Shown here: piece by piece, positions 1,605 through 53,400 of the stretch
Position numbering within the stretch: position 1 is the first letter of the stretch
Layout of the letters: every line of letters starts with the position of its first letter
Assembly (NCBI GenBank): GCA_964016885.1
Contig: OZ024746.1
Span: 33,418,001-33,482,000 of the forward strand
DNA from: Eledone cirrhosa
Taxonomy: Eukaryota
Reading direction: 5' to 3'
Length of the DNA stretch: 64,000 nucleotides
Made by a program: the position numbers and the translations under genes
The notes under the pieces: generated by a model
Told to the model about the DNA's origin: nothing
The model's input: the letters and a program-made list of their open reading frames with translations, nothing else
Databases searched by the model: none

Positions 1605-2237
1605 ATTGTTTCTAATTCAGGCGCAAGAGCAGAAAATTGAAAGGGATGGACAATTCGATACCCATGACCGTTACTGGTGCATTAGTTTATCAACCCCTTA
1701 TGGATGAAAGGCAAAATTAACCTCGGCAGGATTTGAACTCAGAACATAAAGGGCCATAACTCTATTCTGCAAAGCATGGTGTCTGACGCTCTACCGATAC
1801 TGCCAGAAGTAATAATTGCTGCCCCTTTAGGCACATGGTCAACAATTTGGTGGCGAAATGTAAGTCGATTAAATCGACCCCAGCGCGTGACTGGTGCGTT
1901 ATTTTATCGAACCCGTAAGTATGAAAGGCAAAGTTAACCTCGGCCGGATTTGAACTCAGAACGTAAAGGGACATAACTCTCTGGCACAAAGCATAGTATC
2001 TGACGCTCTACCGTCGCTGCCAGAAATAAGGGTTTCCTATATAGGCACAAGGCCAACAATTTTGGGGGAGGGGAAAGTTTTTTAATCCACCCCAGTGCAT
2101 GTCTAGTACTTTATTTTATCGACCCCATAAGGAGGAAAGACAATGTTAACCTCGGTGGGATTTGAACTCAGAATGTAAAGGCACATAACTCTCTGCCACG
2201 AAGAATTGTGTCTGACGCGCTACCGACACTGCCAGAA
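1605..2237 (-). mobile_element. Three head-to-tail copies of a tRNA-derived SINE (octopus-like)
   Basis: Units ~1605-1806, ~1828-2025, ~2041-2237; the minus strand has A-box-like tggcagtatcggtagagcgtc, B-box gagttcaaatcc and body gcctttcatcc...tcgataaaataa. Confidence 0.85.
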
Positions 2238-2760
2238 ATAATAATAATAATTCTTTCTTTATTGGACAGTAGGCCCGACATGTAAAGTCAAATACAAAAG
2301 AAAAGGGACACTGAAAATATACACATATATATACAAAAGGAAAGCCGGTAGCAATTAACAATAATTGATTAATAAAAGTATTTCAGAGATATTTTAGAAA
2401 GCCTAAAATTCCGAAACCATCCTAATCACCAAGATTACCCTAGTAATATGCCTCGTCATATCTGAATACTCCAGCCTCAGCTGCATGTGCAGAGTAGAGC
2501 CATTCATGCTGCCGATGTTCGCTGCATTCAGTCACCTTTTGACAAATATATTGGAGAGCAGCACTTCTATCTCCGCCCTCACCATCCTCTCTCAGTGCAA
2601 ATTTGATGGGGGCATTGCTTTCAATCTTTTTATCCGAGTCCACCACAAAAACATCATCTACTACAGCCACCAGGCAGAGGAAAATTGTCTGCGGTTCCTG
2701 GTCAAAATAAGGCGGCGAGGTTATCTTCATGATGGGCCCGGTTGATAGCCGGATCCATCA
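2238..2760 (-). mobile_element. 3' fragment of a Tx1/L1-like LINE related to the 24.5-30 kb element
   Basis: KITSPPYFDQEPQTIFLCLVAV resembles RIAPPSYFSREGHAVFICLVAM of ORF2 (29.5 kb); ends in aataaagaaag+(TTA)n like 30030-30082. Confidence 0.7.
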
Positions 2761-12020: not shown

Positions 12021-12368
12021 GATTAATATTAAGAAAAATTAATAATACGAAGAGTTAAAATTTGAGACTTGAAAATTCAAGTATAAAATTCATTGTGGGA
12101 TTTCATAGCAGTTTTCATCTAGGTAGCAACAACAGGTTGACTGCTGTGTCCCTTTCTGGTAGTGAATGAGAAGTTATTTGGGGTGTGGGTTATTTTATAA
12201 AGGTCAGATTTAGCAATCGCCAGCTGCTGGTCAGTGAGGGGGAGGAAGCAATATACACACACATATCTTCCTGTGATGGGTAGGAGAGTGGAGCGTGATA
12301 GAAAAGGATTTAGTGCACTTACACCTATATATACACACATACCTTCATCCACACATTCATACATATAC

Positions 12369-12409
<41 letters not shown>

Positions 12410-12470
12410 CACACATACATACACACACACATACATATACATACACACATACACACACACACATATATAT

Positions 12471-12525
<55 letters not shown>

Positions 12526-12557
12526 TATATATATATACATACACATACATCCAGATA

Positions 12558-12644
<87 letters not shown>

Positions 12645-12790
12645 GTATGTGTATATATATATATATATGCGTGTGTGTGTGTGTATATATATGTGTGTGT
12701 ATGTGTGTATATATATGTGTGTGTGTGTGTGTGTGTATGTTTGTATGTGTGTATGTATATATATATGTGTGTGTGTATGTATGTGTGGGG

Positions 12791-12872
<82 letters not shown>

Positions 12873-12913
12873 ATGTATGTGTGTATCTGGATGTATGTGT
12901 ATGTATATATATA

Positions 12914-12970
<57 letters not shown>

Positions 12971-13031
12971 ATATATGTGTGTGTGTGTGTATGTGTGTAT
13001 GTATATGTATGTGTGTGTGTATGTATGTGTG

Positions 13032-13072
<41 letters not shown>

Positions 13073-13420
13073 GTATATGTATGTATGTGTGGATGAAGGT
13101 ATGTGTGTATATATAGGTGTAAGTGCACTAAATCCTTTTCTATCACGCTCCACTCTCCTACCCATCACAGGAAGATATGTGTGTGTATATTGCTTCCTCT
13201 CCCTCACTGACCAGCAGCTGGCGATTGCTAAATCTGACCTTTATAAAATAACCCACACCCCAAATAACTTCTCATTCACTACCAGAAAGGGACACAGCAG
13301 TCAACCTGTTGTTGCTACCTAGATGAAAACTGCTATGAAATCCCACAATAAATTTTATACTTGAATTTTCAAGTCTCAAATTTTAACTCTTCGTATTATT
13401 AATTTTTCTTAATATTAATC

Positions 13421-20887: not shown

Positions 20888-21562
20888 TTACATGCATTTA
20901 AAAAAAGAAAAAGTCGTTTTCAAACGATGGTTACAGTACAGTGAACGTTCAATTTTGCTGTTCAAAAGTTTGTTTAGCGACGTTAAAATGTAGTATATCT
21001 CCATATAGCATAATTTACAGAATCGATGATTTTGCTGATATGCAGGCGCAGCTGGGATAATTTGCCAATCAAGGGAGAATGCTTGATTGTTCCTCCAGAG
21101 CTGCCAGGCTTCATCGGCGAGGGTTGTTACGGAGCGCATTTTCTCGTGCCTGATCGAAAATCGATGTTGGTATAGGCGAGCTTTGAAAGAAGTTGCGGTA
21201 CATCCGACGTAATACCATTTGTTGGTTCCGGAATTTATTGTACATCGGTAGACAATATTGCGTGCTAGGCACTGGTTATTCAGTGGGCACGTACCTGGTT
21301 TGGTGCAGTTACAATTATTTTTATGTTTTGCAGTAGTATCCTGGATAGTTTGGTGGGGTTGTAGTTGCGTGTTAGTGCGTTGTATGTTGCTATGCTGCTG
21401 CGCTGAGTCATTAGGGATGTACTTATTTAGTATTGCTGAGTTGAGTTTTTTAATTAGTTGTTCTATGTTAGGTGCAGTGGAGTATGAGAGTCTAATGGTG
21501 CGCTAGTTAAATATTTTATAGTATTTAGGTGAAGTTGTAAAGTGTTTATTGATTAGTGTATA
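20888..21562 (-). pseudogene. Penelope-like (Naiad) RT-thumb/linker + GIY-YIG endonuclease C-terminus
   Basis: Hand translation: KIFN*RTIRLSYSTAPN...CNCTKPGTCPLNNQCLARNIVYRC...YYVGCTATSFKARLYQHRFS...CKLCYMEIYYI...LLNSKIE...CNH; CxCx5C linker motif; one TAG at 21503-21505. Confidence 0.9.
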
Positions 21563-23756: not shown

Positions 23757-24510
23757 TCTTTGTGTCTCAGTCATTGATGTTATTTAACTGGAAAGTTTGT
23801 TGAAATGAATATCAAGCCACTACCTGCAGCCTCAGATATTCAGGACGTATCGGAGGGTTCTTGCTGTTCCCAGCAAGCATGCCTTTTGAAGTGTTCCAAA
23901 AAGCGGGGCGGGACCAATTTTCTTTACCTATCCTTGGAAACTCTTTGAGATAGTACCTAGTGCGCCTATGACAATCGGGACCACTTTGACTTCATGGCAG
24001 TTCCAAATCCTTTTTACCTCACACTTTAAGTCCTTGTATCGGTTAATTTTCTCCCTCTCCTTTTCTTGCACTCTCGTGTCGAATGTCAGGCTACATACAC
24101 TATCAGGCACGATCTTTTTTCCTTGTCCAAAACCACCAGGTCAGGTCTATTGTGTTCCAATTTGTTGTCCTTCTGTATCCTAAAATCCCACAGCACCTTC
24201 ACCTGATCGTTTTCTATCACCGACTCTGGCTTATGCTCATACCACTTCTCAGAATGGTTGTTTACTTTGCATAGGTGCCTGTGGATCACCCTGCCCATCA
24301 CATCATGTCTCCAGCCTTTATAGTGAGTCTGGGCTAGGTGTTTATACTCGGATACAATGTGAGCCACAGTCTCCCCTCTCTCCCCACAGATCCTGCACAG
24401 TGGGCTAGCCTGTTCCTTGTAAATATGGTGTTTCACCCACTTCGATTTGAGGGCCTGCTCTTGCGCAGCCATTAGCATTCCTTCTGTAGCCTTTTTAAGG
24501 TTTCCTCTTT
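23753..24510 (-). mobile_element. R4/Dong-type RLE LINE 3' fragment inserted in (TAA)n
   Basis: AAQEQAL...CRICGERGETVAHIVS...RHD...EHKPESVIENDQVKVLWDFRIQKDNKLEHNRPDL...EKINRYKDL...VVPIVIGALG; (TTA)n on both sides. Confidence 0.9.
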
Positions 24511-24761
24511 TTATTATTATTGTTATTATTATTATTATTATTATTAGCGACCTACGTAGTAAATCGTATCATCATGATATCCGCAAATGTTTGTTATTTT
24601 CAGTTGTTTAAAATTGCCATTTATGGAAACATTTTATTGTTAACTGTATATAAGTGCACATACATTGATTTCTGAAAAGGAAACTCAAAAAGATTGGGAC
24701 CTTCAGCCCAACATTTAAACTTTTTATAATTATCAAACAAAAAAAATTTCTTTGAAAAAGC

Positions 24762-26410
24762 ATGGCCGATTCGGAGTCACACCTCACTCACAAACTAACA
24801 CCTCACACCGACACCACCATTGTAAGTATTACTACGTTTTCCAATACTAAAAATATAAGAAGTAGCAATATTTTAAATGAAATTAAGAAAATTAAGAAAA
24901 CTACCCTGTCTTTTGCGAGAGTAGCCAACACGTGCGAAGAGATCCAGGCAACTCAGGAGGAATTAGAAGAAGCCAAAAGAATGGTAAAGAAAGATGGGTA
25001 CAGGGCCAGCCTCACCCACCCCCACCTAATAAAATGGAGCATTGTCGCCTATGCACCCTGTCTTATCGGACAATTAACATAACATCGCGCCGAGTGGAAC
25101 GGGCATCCGAGTCGCAAATCCAAAAAGCTTTGGGACATGTGTGGGTAAAAATATGGAACCGTGGACGTGTTCTTTGAAACACCACAGGAGGCTAGAGAAC
25201 ACTCCATGGCCCCATTAAGAAGTGACGACTTCACACTCGTCCCAAGCTATTGTGGCCAGAGACTCGTAAAGATCAGGGTGACCCACGTTCCACCGGCCAT
25301 CGAAATTCCCTGGCTAATAGCTGCCGTCCTCGCCGACATCGAAGCCAACACCAAGATAATCGAAATAGCGAAAGAAAAGCAGGAGAACTGGTCCGGATCA
25401 GGGATGGAGCTTCTGATCCAAGCGGACCAAAAAAGCATTGAGGAGATCCTAGAGGTAATAGACCTCACTGACGGCAGCCACCTCACCGTAATCGTCGAGG
25501 GCAGAAGACCTAGGTGTGTCGTTTGAGGTGAAGGAACCCACCCAAGGGCTTTCTGCTTTCAGGTTAAAAGGTTGAGGCCACCTCTCTTACCCACCCCAGT
25601 GACTCAACCATCAACACCACCAACGGCAGAGATGGGAGCAACAACTGTAGCAGCAACAACAGAAACCACTGTAACAGCAACAACCCCAGCAACAGTAGCA
25701 AAACCAACACGACCACCACCCAACGCGCCAGAACAAGCACCAGCGCCTATACCATCCACGACGCCACAACCAAAAACCAACGTCTGTGGAGGATTTTCCA
25801 ATCCCCGGCCTATCACAATTGGAGAGAGATTGTGACGACGAGGAGTGGGAAATGGTATCAGGAAAAAAGAAAAAAAAGAAACTCTAAAAGAAAAAAATCT
25901 CTTCTTTCTCCGTCCAAAAACAAAATACAGAGGGAAACAAATAAACTATCAAACGAAAAAGTTAGGACAGATATGCCACCATCCATACCAGCATCACCAA
26001 CCCCATCACCACACACACCAACACCATCATTAACCCCAACACCACCATCACCAACACCACAAAAGTCACCCAAAAGCGAAACCGAAACAAACCCACAACA
26101 AACGCAAACAAAACAAAACAACCAAAACGATACACACTACACAGCATTAAATTTGAGCAACAACCAATTATTACACTACATCCAACACAACACCAGCATC
26201 ACCGAAAAAGACTGCACAACAATCCAAAATTCACACAACATCCACACATAGAAATCAGTCGCATCACACAGAAAACGTACACGACACAAAACAAAATTCC
26301 CCAAAGACATCGGAGACTTCGGACAAGCACTCTCCAGGAGGATTTATAAGGACATCCTTCCGGAAGAGGCCACAAGCAGTGAAAAGGATGGACAAACCAT
26401 CCTTCCTCTA
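24762..26410 (+). pseudogene. LINE ORF1 (gag-like), frameshifted
   Basis: ATG at 24762; LTVIVEGRRPRCVV*GEGTHPRAFC is a CX2CX4HX4C knuckle with one Cys turned to stop; Pro/Thr-rich tail. Confidence 0.75.
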
Positions 26411-26429
26411 CGAGAAGTAAGGTAAGTGG

Positions 26430-29400
26430 CCTTTCCCATCTTTTCCACTCCATTTCAACAGGACCTCACTCAGAATAGGCAGCATAAATTCGCGTGGCTT
26501 GGGGTCGTCATGGAAGCAGGGCCACCTGCTCAACGACCCAAGGTCACTAAACATAGATGTAGTGGCCATCAGCGAGACCAGAATCTCCGAAGCACGGGAC
26601 GTCGCAGCGATCTTCGGCGGCTACGATGTGTACGCATCTCCCAGCCGTCCGGGATCGGGGTAGGAGTTGCTGTGCTTTTTCGGAGAGGTTTGGATCTCGC
26701 CACACGGGCCATCTTCCTGGACCCAGAAGGTAAGTTGGTGGTGCTGGACGTGACCAGCAGAGACGGGCAAGCTTTCAGGCTAGTGGCCGTCTATGGGCAC
26801 AGGAGCAGGGCGGCCTGATTTCTTCCGGCGTCTGGAGACCTTTCTTGGAACGTCCCGCTCCTTAGTGTTAGTGGGCGACTGGAACGGGATCTTAGATGCA
26901 CGCTGGAACTGTGTGGGATCAGCGGATAGGAGAGGAGGGTGCAAGAGCCTCACCAACCTGCTCAGGCGTTTTGAACTGTCTGACAGGTACCGATTGAGGT
27001 TCCCGAATGTGCCAATGTGGACTTGGACAAATCGTATAGGGTCATCCAGATCATATCTAGATAGAGCATTTTGTAGGGAAATAGATAGGTCTAGCATAGG
27101 CTGTCCACAATTCAAGATAGTCAGCTACACGGACCACAAATTCGTGATCTGTGTGCTTGACATAGATAGGCTTCATAGACGAGGACCCGGCTACTAGAAG
27201 GTAAACGCGTCCTTACCAGCGCGCAACGCCTACAGAGACTGGATTAGCGAACTAGTTAAGCGGGCGTTGACGGGGGCCATCGTCAACAACAAGTGGTGGT
27301 TTGCTCTGAAATGAGCGATTAGAATAGAGTCTATTAGGTTTAGTAAGAATTTAGCAATATAGAAAAATAGAGCAGAGGGAGAATTAGTTAGAAAATTAGA
27401 CGAGGCGCTTAGCAAAGGCATCGCGACCGACGTACTTGCGGCAAAATTGGCCCTTGACCAATTCTTCAATGCAAAGCACGAAGGCTGCATTGTCAGATCT
27501 AGGGTGCGTGCTCTCAGACGCGAGGGGACGAAAGGCATTCAATGGGCCCGAGTGGCAGAGGCGCGTCGTGGCAACAAAGCCACGATCCGGTCTTTGGTGG
27601 AACACGAGGAGCGCATGCTACTCGATCCCGGGCAAATGTGTGAAGCTTTCCAGCGACACTTCGCCCAGCTGCTCGGGGGCAGCGGTGGGCCGACTCGAGG
27701 GATGGACATTAGTGTCTACCTCGACGGACTACCGCGGCTCTCGGCCACTGAGGATAGTGTTGCGAAAAGCCGATAACAGCCGCTGAAGTACGGGAGGCAA
27801 TGACTGGCTGCACAAGTGGTAAATTGCCTTGTTTAGATGGTCCGCCCTATGAACTTTACGTACAGATGCCAGACTTGTTTGAGGCCTCTTGGCGGATGTC
27901 TACCGCAGCTGGCAACATAACGGGAGAATTCCCAGTTCTGTGAGCCGAGGAGCTGTGGTGATGCTGAGAAAGGATCCGAATAAGGGCGATTACATAGATA
28001 ATTTCAGACCCATAACTCTGCTAAACACAGAGTTCAAGATTTTGGCCAATGTGCTAGAAAAGAGGTTGGTGCTTGTCGTTGGTGGTCTGGTGGGAGAGAC
28101 GCAGACATGCGCCATTCCTGACAGATCCATCCACGACAACCTCCACCTCATGCGATACATCGTAGAGAGGGAACCTGGCACGGGTGGGTGCTTGATCAAT
28201 TTTGATCAGTCGAAAGCTTTCGATAGCATCGACCATCGTTACCTAGCGGCAGTCCTGAGGGCGGCTGGCTTTGGGCCCGTCTTCAGAGTCTGGATCGCTG
28301 CCATGCACAGCGACATCTGCTCTGTGGTGAGAGTGAACGGTCACCTTTCGGAACCTCAACATCATGCGCTCGGTCCGCCAAGGATGTCCCCTCTCGTCCC
28401 TCTTGTACGTATTGAATCTCGAGCCATTACTGCACAAACTGGAGATGTTGACGGGGGTCCCGCGCGAACTAGGATGCGGAAGATCCCTGTCAGCATATGC
28501 GGACGATGTCACCGTAGTGGTGTCTAACGCCAAACACATCGAGGCAATCGGCACTACACTAAGAGAATACGAAGCGGTGACAGGAGCAATGATCAACCAG
28601 GAAAAGTCAGTGGGCTTGCAGCTCGGCACCTGGACGGACGGACCGGCTAAATTGCTATGGGTCTGGTTCGGCCCGGACCTCCAGACGGACAAAAACTGGG
28701 ACGAGGTGACGAGAAGAGTGGCTTCTCTCACCCAGAAATGGGCGGAGAGGAAGCTATCTCTGAAAGGACGAGCGGAGGTGGCTAACGCGTACATCGCGTC
28801 CGTCATCTACTAACAGCCTGACCGTCGTACCTTGTCCTAAACCCCGCCTGACTGCGCTGGAGCGTTTGCTCTTTCGCTTTTTGTGGAAGGGACGCGCTCC
28901 GATGGTCAGGCGGTCCATCTGCTGTCAACACCCGCTACGTGGAGGGCTGTGCATGCCGTGGCTGATGATGCGCAGACACGCGCTCAGGCTACGATATCTC
29001 CACCTCTTCCTCGACGGTGATCAGGTGTGGTCGCCGTTTGCTAGACATGTCTTTCCCCAGATCGTCTCCTTGACGGAGCTGCAGTCCTGGGTCAAGCGAA
29101 GACCGAGAGGGAGCGCTTGGAGACTGGAATGTCTTCAGGCGCTCACAGCCCTCGACCAATCGGGCAATGTGATCGGTGGAAACTCCACCTTGGCGTTCTA
29201 TAGATGATTAGTGGAGGGGAAGAGCGACGACGTACGTGGAGAAACTCTAGGCGTCGACGAAAATTAACTAGCCAATCTCTTCGGTAGGACTTTCGAGCCG
29301 GGGTCTATGGACAACTTTCAGAAATCCCTGGCCTGGCAGTGCTACCGGGGAGCTTTGCCAGTTCGGGATAAACTCTACAGGCATGGAGGTGCCGTCAGCC

Positions 29401-29798
29401 GGGCATGTCCGAGATGCGCGCAGGGCGACGAAACCGTCCTGCACGCACTCGTCCAGTGTCTGAGCATTGCTGACTTGTGGGTTTATGTCGAACACCTGCT
29501 ATCAGCTGAGTCCATCGTGAGGATTGCCCCGCCCTCTTACTTTAGCCGGGAAGGGCATGCAGTTTTTATCTGTCTGGTGGCCATGGCGAAAGAGATAGTT
29601 TGGTGGACACGTTTCAAAGGGCTGAAGACGAGCACTTACCTCTTCGGTGATGCTCTGATTAACATTTTCAAATTTCATTTGAAAAGGAAAATCAGGGTAG
29701 AGAGGGAAGTGCTCTCTTCCCAGCATTTTGTTGAAAGATGGGTGAGAGAAGCAAGTATGGCCCGAATGAATGGGCCTTCTCTGAGTATGTGTCTGTAA
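26430..29798 (+). pseudogene. LINE ORF2: AP endonuclease + reverse transcriptase + C-terminal zinc motif, multiple stops/frameshifts
   Basis: IGSINSRGL, DVVAISET, GDWN, SYLDR, TDHK; NFRPITLLN, DQSKAFD, VRQGCPLS, YADD (28496-28507); CPRCAQGDETVLHALVQC. Confidence 0.93.
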
Positions 29799-50129: not shown

Positions 50130-50184
50130 CTTTTGAGTACTCTGGTGCGTTATGGTCCATCTGTTTCCTTACCACACTTCCTTC

Positions 50185-50190
<6 letters not shown>
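50130..50190 (+). mobile_element. Family B 3' terminal fragment
   Basis: ttgagtactctggtgcgttatggtccatctgtttccttaccacacttccttcg+(TA)n. Confidence 0.7.
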
Positions 50191-50248
<58 letters not shown>

Positions 50249-50252
50249 TATA

Positions 50253-51448
50253 TACTATCAATAATAATGAGTTCAAAACTCAGGCAGTCTTTTACAATGA
50301 AATAGATAAAAGAAAGAAGTATTTCTGAGCCGTGTAATACAAGATAATATAAATTAATATATTTGATAAACACAAATACCAACATATTCATGTTTGTATT
50401 GTAAATGACCAAGTTAGCTAGATTGAAATATACTAATAATAATAATACATTTTGCCTGTCTCGATTTAAGATAATAAATCAATAAACACAAATCATATTG
50501 GCAATGGCCGTAGTGCTTGGACAAATTTAAATTTCAAAATCAAACCTGCTCTGTAGACAGGTTTAAACGTTAAAATCCAAATATCTTTCGAATAATGAAA
50601 AAGTGAAAGAATACCGCATTTTGATCTCCTTAGCAAGCACTATAAAAATTGGTATGTTTCACTTCAAAATATTTAGAAAGACTGATTAACGCACATGGTA
50701 TTTCACGCGGTTATCCAGTGTCTAGCTGTCACATACTCGTGCTGCTAGAAATAACAACCGTTTGGATGGGGCTAAATTCAGCTCAACAAAGGAGCAGTGA
50801 TACTATCAATAATAATGAGTTCAAAACTCAGGCAGTCTTTTACAATGAAATAGCTCAAAGAAAGAAGTATATATATCAAATATATTAATTTATATTATCT
50901 TGTATTACACGGCTCAGAAATACTTCTTTCTTTGAGCTATTTCATTGTACAAGACTGCCTGAGTTTTGAACTCATTATTATTGATAGTATCACTGCTCCT
51001 TTGTTGAGTTGAATTTAGCCCCATACAAACGGCTGTTATTTCTAGCAGCACGAGTATGTGACAGCTAGACACTGGATAACCGCGTGAAATACCATGTGCG
51101 TTAATCAGTCTTTCTAAATATTTTGAAGTGAAACATACCAATTTTTATAGTGCTTGCTGAGGAGATCAAAATGCGGTATTCTTTCACTTTTTCATTATTC
51201 GAAACATATTTGGATTTTAACGTTTAAACCTGTCTACAGAGCAGGTTTGATTTTGAAATTTAAATTTGTCCAAGCACTACGGCCATTGCCAATATGATTT
51301 GTTTTTATTGATTTATTATCTTAAATCGAGACAGGCAAAATGTATTATTATTATTAGTATATTTCAATCTAGCTAACTTGGCCATTTACAATACAAACAT
51401 GAATATGTTGGTATTTGTGTTTATCTAATATATTAATTTATATTATCT

Positions 51449-51452
<4 letters not shown>
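50253..51452. mobile_element. Foldback of two terminally redundant 548-bp monomers in (TA)n
   Basis: Left arm 50253-50870 (50253-50322 repeated at 50801-50870); right arm 50874-51452 (50874-50904 repeated at 51422-51452); both offsets are exactly 548. Confidence 0.88.
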
Positions 51453-51486
<34 letters not shown>

Positions 51487-53220: not shown

Positions 53221-53221
<1 letters not shown>

Positions 53222-53400
53222 CGAAGGAATTGTGGTAAGGAACCAGATGGACCATAACGCACCAACGTACTCAATACTTAGGGTAGTAGAGTGGGTAATA
53301 GGAACAAGTATGACCCCGACGGCAGAGCTCAAGCCGTTTCGTCCAGAAATAGCCGTCGAAACGGCTTGAGCTCTGCCGTCGGGCTCATACTTGATCCTAT
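53221..53400. mobile_element. Short family B foldback (junction inside HHR helix II)
   Basis: gaccccgacggcagagctcaagccgtttcg pairs with cgaaacggcttgagctctgccgtcgggctc. Confidence 0.8.

What the first reader, a model, noticed from the sequence alone, without database searches (positions are those of the whole stretch)
50253..51452. Foldback made of circularly permuted 548-bp monomers, a possible circular RNA template
Seen in the sequence: each arm is one 548-bp unit plus terminal redundancy (70 bp left, 31 bp right), and the two arms start and stop at different phases of the same circle. There is no recognisable coding capacity. A weak HHR-like motif (CTGAGGA 51157-51163 ... GAAA 51201-51204) has a poor helix I. 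Inference: the insert came from rolling reverse transcription of a circular or multimeric RNA, as for retrozymes. The alternative is a small pLTR-interior-pLTR element truncated in different places.
Basis: partly seen in the sequence, partly recalled or inferred. Interest (0 to 1): 0.75.

Follow-up and report, generated by a model that had tools for sequence, protein, structure and literature searches.

The report
Two-site-primed hammerhead retrozyme foldback
This is one copy of a large family of 548-base non-coding repeats that carry a predicted self-cutting hammerhead RNA and sit in TA microsatellites; its two head-to-head arms start at two different fixed points, likely because a Penelope-type jumping-gene enzyme copied one RNA, probably a circle, from both broken DNA ends, which makes it a new example of a known kind of element (a retrozyme).

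Summary
In detail: two inverted arms of 619 and 580 bp, each one 548-bp unit plus 71 or 32 bp, inside (TA)n. Two corrections. (1) The hammerhead is complete, not weak: helix I has 9 bp (51148-56 with 51271-79), closed beyond a ~26-bp helix III, and 5 of its 9 pairs change on both sides across subfamilies. (2) The outer ends are fixed: 249 of 271 arms in 169 insertions start at one of two sites about 70-88 nt apart. Foldbacks use one of each in 80 of 84 resolved cases; only the inner ends vary. Both arms carry the same haplotype and run through the ribozyme cut site. An intact 775-aa Penelope-like element in this genome shows the same (TA)n target and the same pairing (9 of 9), and one copy is fused to its ORF. 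Verdict: a non-autonomous type I hammerhead (non-LTR) retrozyme, a known kind. The two sites match the published Penelope 'tail'. A circular template is likely but not shown; an uncut multimer fits too, and no RNA data were available. The scan reported this kind of element in this genome before (e1-10322590, e1-10322432).

The parts
50189..50251 (.). (TA)n target tract, left part
50252..50870 (-). Left arm, 619 bp, 1.13 units; sense on the - strand; its outer (3') end is family site B (U88)
50252..50322 (-). Terminal redundancy of the left arm (71 bp, repeated at 50800-50870)
   Evidence: D14
50511..50642 (-). Hammerhead copy in the left arm, with substitutions at core G5 (50631) and C15.2 (50585); likely inactive (that G5 is essential is established knowledge, recalled)
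50871..50873 (.). 3-nt filler at the head-to-head junction
50874..51453 (+). Right arm, 580 bp, 1.06 units; its outer (3') end is family site A (U548, plus TAT shared with the tract); 32-bp redundancy 50874-50905 / 51422-51453
50903..51450 (+). One full 548-nt unit (U1-548); folded as a circle it gives -131 kcal/mol, z about -5 against 25 approximate dinucleotide shuffles
50903..50990 (+). 'Tail': the 83-88 nt between priming sites A and B
51148..51279 (+). Type I hammerhead with intact core: helix I 51148-56 / 51271-79, CUGAGGA 51157-63, weak helix II with a long loop, GAAA 51201-04, ~26-bp helix III 51204-51269, predicted cut after GUC at 51270
51451..51483 (.). (TA)n target tract, right part

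Best explanation
The insert is a head-to-head copy of a 548-base, non-coding, hammerhead-bearing repeat whose two arms begin at two different fixed sites next to TA microsatellite, and it was likely written into the genome by a Penelope-like reverse transcriptase copying one probably circular RNA from both cut DNA strands. Steps: (1) Source loci with two hammerheads in one arm are transcribed, cut to a monomer and ligated to a circle. Such loci are shown (11 of 79 motif-chosen insertions, counting this family and its sisters together); cutting and ligation are inferred from other animal retrozymes. (2) A Penelope-like endonuclease nicks (TA)n on both strands. The target is shown; the enzyme is inferred. 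(3) One 3' end primes at site A and the other at site B, 83-88 nt downstream. The A+B rule is shown; the priming is inferred. (4) Both polymerases run through the cut site, often for more than one unit, on the same haplotype. This is shown at DNA level; on one molecule it would need strand displacement. (5) The two cDNA ends are joined head to head at variable phases, here with a 3-nt filler. The window copy has one ribozyme per arm, so it is likely a dead end that cannot release a monomer. Odds: retrozyme moved by a PLE about 0.9; two-strand, two-site priming about 0.8; circular rather than uncut linear template about 0.65.
For: Family: 2,398 first-look candidates; 173 exact hits to a 25-mer; 1,324 exact hits to a 28-mer shared with sister families. 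Ribozyme: 94% of cells paired, 45 cells with two-sided change against 14.7 in shuffles (0/500); 5 of 9 helix I pairs change on both sides; core intact in 107 of 129 copies. Ends: 249 of 271 arms start at A or B. Of 102 foldbacks, 80 are A+B, 3 A+A, 1 B+B and 18 unresolved; in the two motif-chosen sets 33 of 34 resolved ones are A+B. Inner ends are spread, 0 of 153 within 5 nt of the cut. The cut site is crossed without an indel in 76 of 76 sister passes and without a deletion in 149 of 155 family passes. Opposite arms differ at 47 of 1,459 diagnostic sites (sister family 1 of 128), against 35-37% between insertions. In 76 of 80 A+B foldbacks the B arm runs past site A; 18 of 80, including this one, cannot be fold-back copies of one arm. 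A 775-aa PLE ends at two sites next to (TA)n, and 9 of 9 resolved foldbacks are A+B. L247 joins about 250 nt of its ORF to a unit between (TA)n tracts. PMC11167929 shows a PLE protein cleaving and extending both strands and starting at two internal RNA sites.
Against: No RNA evidence either way. Covariation counts sequences, not events: the count of pairs with two-sided change is not beyond the shuffles (64/500), and all such pairs are in helix I. Helix II is weak in this subfamily: its third pair is unpaired in 12 of 30 rows, and the minimum-energy fold does not form the core. No Rfam hammerhead model matches. No significant DNA similarity links the unit to either PLE tested, and the chimera is a single case. 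Arm lengths show no clear excess at whole units (11, against 5 and 7 in neighbouring bins). Inner ends are not significantly tied to each other (8 of 80, p=0.09) or to the other arm's start (14 of 80, p=0.07). The long sister arrays L203 and L204 carry block-wise variants that point to DNA-level expansion after insertion. The 4.2-kb PLE also makes arms longer than one unit, and in PMC11167929 unprocessed RNA was the dominant substrate in vitro.
Confidence: 0.62

Rival explanations
1. Same element, enzyme and two-site priming, but the template is an uncut linear multimer transcribed through a tandem source locus (or two transcripts of one locus), not a circle.
For: PMC11167929: ribozyme cleavage was not needed in vitro and uncut RNA was the main substrate. 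Loci with two ribozymes in one arm exist (11 of 79). Successive rounds differ at 41 of 1,879 diagnostic sites (11 of 579 in the sister family). The autonomous PLE shows the same geometry.
Against: Without a monomer-to-multimer step, arrays would shrink each generation, yet the family has persisted through subfamilies down to about 70% identity while keeping helix I paired. Thirteen variants private to one locus are fixed in all passes of that locus. This copy alone would need about 1,200 nt of tandem template if the two cDNAs did not overlap (arithmetic).
Confidence: 0.25
2. One arm is made by target priming and the second by fold-back self-priming or DNA copying of the first, with the endonuclease cutting at the other fixed site (compare the self-priming idea in PMC3846280 and 'EN-mediated resolution' in PMC8557442).
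For: In 62 of 80 A+B foldbacks one arm is nested within the other's span, and 8 have mirror-image junctions.
Against: 18 of 80, including this copy (580 and 619 nt), are not nested. Mirror junctions are not significantly enriched (p=0.09). Single-arm insertions also end at either site.
Confidence: 0.08
3. A small element with a fixed terminal repeat around an interior, truncated at different places.
For: The outer ends are fixed, and the A-B tail looks like a short optional repeat.
Against: Redundancy varies from none to several whole units, inner ends cover the whole unit, and units follow head to tail with no separate interior.
Confidence: 0.03
4. Assembly or long-read foldback artefact.
For: It is an inverted repeat in a repeat-rich assembly.
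Against: The arms differ at 11 of 548 positions and start at different phases. 102 loci share the architecture, with different junctions.
Confidence: 0.01

Closest known systems
Metazoan non-LTR retrozymes (Cervera and de la Pena 2020, PMC7229834: passages and parts 3-4 of 6 read; Li, Clavereau and Pollet 2026, bioRxiv 10.64898/2026.07.22.740005: parts 1-3 of 5 read)
   Same: Non-coding, low-GC, head-to-tail units with one type I hammerhead each; dispersed; no LTR; PLEs in the same genome; proposed to spread as circles reverse-transcribed into tandem cDNA.
   Different: The unit is 548 nt (150-450 bp in PMC7229834, but within the 51-972 bp of the preprint). Helix III is ~26 bp and loop II is long. 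No homology to a PLE pLTR was found here, whereas the preprint finds it for 24 of 57 Xenopus families. The parts read do not describe two fixed ends or head-to-head foldbacks.
Penelope-like element integration signature (Craig et al. 2021, PMC8557442: 12 of 25 passages; Arkhipova et al. 2013, PMC3846280: 6 passages; Frangieh et al. 2024, PMC11167929: parts 1-2 of 4)
   Same: Partial tandems, an inverted 5'-truncated copy, a tail often on only one end, microsatellite or AT-rich targets, two internal RT start sites, both strands extended.
   Different: No ORF. The tail is 83-88 nt (sister family about 69) rather than 30-40. The near-strict one-A, one-B pairing with shared haplotype is counted here; I did not find it stated in the passages read.
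L1 twin priming (recalled, not read)
   Same: Both target strands prime on one RNA and give an inversion.
   Different: In L1 the two pieces share out the template without overlap and the second site varies; here both sites are fixed and the arms overlap (76 of 80).

Membership tests
Non-LTR retrozyme | Type I hammerhead in each unit | tested here: met
   Core and three helices; helix I covariation; core intact in 107 of 129. No Rfam hammerhead hit; helix II weak.
Non-LTR retrozyme | Head-to-tail repeats with at least two complete ribozymes in some loci | tested here: met
   11 of 79 motif-chosen insertions of this family and its sisters, 11 of 55 best-hit insertions; up to 4.03 units. Not met by the window copy itself.
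Non-LTR retrozyme | Non-coding, low GC, no LTR organisation | tested here: met
   No frame of 120 aa or more; 30-37% GC in the two 1-kb bins; no fixed terminal repeat. PBS and PPT were not searched for.
Non-LTR retrozyme | RNA self-cleaves | not testable with these tools
   Needs an in vitro transcription assay.
Non-LTR retrozyme | Expressed as circular RNA | not testable with these tools
   No run on record as RNA was available.
Non-LTR retrozyme | Derived from the pLTR of a PLE (Li et al. 2026) | tested here: inconclusive
   No significant similarity to two PLE families; other PLE families of the genome were not surveyed.
PLE-mobilised insertion | Two internal start sites (tail), inverted 5' copy, AT-rich target | tested here: met
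   249 of 271 arms; 80 of 84 foldbacks; same pattern in an autonomous PLE.
PLE-mobilised insertion | Identified enzyme acts on this RNA | tested here: inconclusive
   One chimera with the 775-aa PLE ORF (L247).
Autonomous PLE | ORF for RT and GIY-YIG endonuclease | tested here: not met
   No ORF in the unit; units are directly adjacent.
Plant LTR retrozyme | Type III hammerhead inside LTRs, 4-bp target duplication | tested here: not met
   Type I topology, no LTRs, (TA)n on both sides.

The most novel reading that the evidence does not exclude
The foldbacks record a paired Penelope-type polymerase that assigns one fixed start site to each target strand and rolls both cDNAs round the same covalently closed 548-nt RNA, with strand displacement. 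This would be a genomic footprint of double rolling-circle integration, and a general explanation of PLE inverted, tailed insertions.
Probability: 0.35. Interest if true: 0.7.

Novelty: new member of a known kind. Interest (0 to 1): 0.42.

Why it matters
How Penelope-like elements form their tandem, inverted and tailed insertions is called an open question in PMC8557442, and how animal retrozyme circles integrate is only proposed in PMC7229834. This family supplies a short defined template, two mapped start sites, a pairing rule (80 of 84) and a young intact candidate enzyme in one genome, so the question can be tested in the published in vitro assay. The kind of element itself is known.

Tried and rejected
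Rfam scan: only microRNA-like and other sub-threshold matches, no hammerhead. The first phase comparison had an indexing error (its long mismatch list is meaningless) and was redone. The repeated-unit comparison by private variants did not separate circle from multimer: 2.6% within insertions, 1.6-1.8% to the nearest other locus, about 7% to the median. Excess of arm lengths at whole units, mirror junctions and classic twin-priming adjacency: none significant. Long arrays rejected as proof of rolling. The 778-aa PLE seen in the window and the 775-aa PLE: no significant DNA similarity to the unit. Pfam found no family for the window's endonuclease frame and only a weak unrelated hit for the 778-aa ORF; the 775-aa ORF was not scanned. 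Sequencing runs: no RNA holder listed. The three contig sets from one sample only show the repeat family and say nothing on RNA or circles. A search of earlier findings by sequence found nothing. Rows dropped: L045 and L080 as duplicated loci, 2 complex loci, 18 foldbacks with an unresolved end. In complex locus L077 one arm starts at U370, next to the cut, and the script counted another segment of that locus instead.

Full report
Observation. The repeat finder gives a 71-bp and a 32-bp direct repeat, each at 548 spacing, and 98% complementary inverted arms, between two (TA)n tracts. Taking U = 50903-51450 (+) as the unit, the left arm runs U88 back to U18 (619 bp) and the right arm U520 to U3 (580 bp), joined by a 3-nt filler. 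The arms differ at 11 of 548 positions, so this is not a read artefact. No frame of 120 aa or more lies inside.

A dispersed family. The window lies in a 3.0-Gb genome; no call names the organism. The left arm gives 2,398 candidates, of which 40 were scored. A 25-mer of the ribozyme has 173 exact hits. A 28-mer of helix III has 1,324, spread over subfamilies from 98% down to about 70% identity, including a young 518-nt sister family found at L134. I examined 171 insertions in four sets: 56 best hits, 40 and 40 taken in genome order from the two motif lists, and 35 best hits of the sister family. Two complex loci were dropped. Best-hit sets favour long copies, and motif sets require the ribozyme region.

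The ribozyme. After CUGAGGA (51157-63) and GAAA (51201-04) comes a ~26-bp helix III, then GUC (cut predicted after 51270) and 51271-79, which pairs with 51148-56. The 151-nt region folds with helices I and III (z -3.4), though the minimum-energy fold does not form the core. Across 30 hand-picked complete copies, 94% of cells pair and 45 cells change on both sides (shuffles 14.7, 0/500). Five of 9 helix I pairs show such changes; helices II and III show none. The count of such pairs alone is not beyond the shuffles (64/500), and related sequences inflate these controls. The core is intact in 107 of 129 family copies. Rfam finds no hammerhead, plausibly because of the long helix III and loop II (inference). 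The left-arm copy has substitutions at G5 and C15.2.

Two fixed starts. Of 271 arms, 249 start at site A (U548, window 51450) or site B (U83-88; about 69 in the sister family), typically directly against (TA)n; the two class windows cover about 9% of the unit. Of 102 foldbacks, 80 are A+B, 3 A+A, 1 B+B and 18 unresolved; p=2e-19 against an even choice, and 33 of 34 in the motif sets. Inner ends are spread over the unit, 0 of 153 within 5 nt of the cut (one arm of complex locus L077 at U370 was not counted). 127 of 168 segments cross the cut, 24 of them twice. So the template was not a cut linear monomer.

One template. Opposite arms disagree at 47 of 1,459 diagnostic sites (sister family 1 of 128; youngest subfamily 4 of 30), against 29-37% between insertions. 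In 76 of 80 A+B foldbacks the B arm runs beyond site A, and in 10 both arms exceed one unit. Eighteen, including this one, are not nested and so cannot be fold-back copies. The cut site is crossed without an indel in 76 of 76 sister passes and without a deletion in 149 of 155 family passes; insertions were not scored for the latter. That fits a ligated circle or uncut RNA better than template jumps between cut monomers (inference).

Circle or multimer. For the circle: most copies are under two units yet multimers keep arising; 13 locus-private variants are fixed in all passes; the unit folds strongly as a circle; and circles are shown for mussel, coral and axolotl retrozymes (PMC7229834). Against, or neutral: no whole-unit excess in arm length; long arrays show DNA-level expansion; successive rounds differ at 2% of diagnostic sites; and uncut RNA was the main PLE substrate in vitro (PMC11167929). 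I put the circle at about 0.65.

The enzyme. A PLE-type family seen in the window at 20888-21502 has 63,861 candidates and ~780-aa frames, carries its own hammerhead motif and ends at two sites next to (TA)n or (TC)n, but shows no DNA similarity to the unit. L247 joins about 250 nt of a second PLE's ORF, in the same sense, to U295-548 between (TA)n tracts, most simply a template switch. That family is young, with many 775-aa frames. It has a C-X4-C-X2-C linker before a C-terminal GIY-YIG-like region, the Neptune linker named in PMC8557442; the clade was not tested by a tree. It ends at two sites about 60 nt apart next to (TA)n, and 9 of 9 resolved foldbacks among 20 loci, chosen partly for having opposed copies, are A+B. 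It is the best candidate driver, on one chimera and shared behaviour only.

Comparison. The element meets every testable feature of non-LTR retrozymes except descent from a PLE pLTR, which is inconclusive. The insertion geometry is the known PLE signature: partial tandems, an inverted 5' copy, and a tail on one end. PMC11167929 explains the tail by two internal starts, with both strands extended. Five literature searches and the parts of five papers listed under Closest known systems showed no statement of the one-A, one-B pairing with shared haplotype; supplements were not read. Earlier notes of this scan report the same pattern elsewhere in this genome; I saw them after my own counts and do not treat them as support.

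Verdict. Real, well explained, a new member of a known kind, and useful as a compact test case for PLE integration. Interest 0.42.

Noticed in passing
L134:461-1039 (-); L179-L222: Young sister family with a 518-nt unit, about 70% identical, with compensatory helix I, the same two-site foldbacks (17 of 17 resolved are A+B) and arrays up to 9.15 units; intermediate subfamilies among L223-L262.
   Followed up: yes
L247:1971-2477: Chimera of about 250 nt of a PLE ORF and part of a retrozyme unit between (TA)n tracts; likely a template switch.
   Followed up: yes
L273-L292: Very young PLE family with 775-aa frames, a 4.2-kb tandem period, a minimal hammerhead motif, upstream coding-like sequence and A+B foldbacks.
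   Followed up: partly
window 20888-21502 (-): Endonuclease end of an abundant PLE-type family (63,861 candidates, ~780-aa frames elsewhere) with its own hammerhead motif and two ends about 108 nt apart.
   Followed up: partly
window 25149-29798 (+): GC-rich fragmented LINE-like element; RVT_1 hit at 27883-28524 (E 8.8e-12).
   Followed up: partly
window 1682-2241; L013, L017, L137: 212-bp tandem of a SINE-like repeat (label recalled); similar sequence interrupts the retrozyme tail near U72-86 in several loci, with a 15-nt duplication in L013, suggesting a preferred target.
   Followed up: no
window 50133-50188 and 53221-53400: Another dispersed repeat (1,619 candidates) with an internal inverted repeat, abutting (TA)n; a fragment lies just left of the finding's target tract.
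   Followed up: partly
window 12119-13322: A 1.2-kb inverted repeat made largely of microsatellite, with near-identical frames on both strands.
   Followed up: no
window 24086-24568 (-): Frame resembling the C-terminal zinc-knuckle and nuclease end of a non-LTR element (motif recalled).
   Followed up: no
L203, L204: Long sister arrays with variants shared by blocks of neighbouring units, pointing to DNA-level duplication or conversion after insertion.
   Followed up: partly
L044/L045 and L007/L080: Pairs of insertions with the same junctions 3-6 kb apart: local duplications or assembly redundancy.
   Followed up: no
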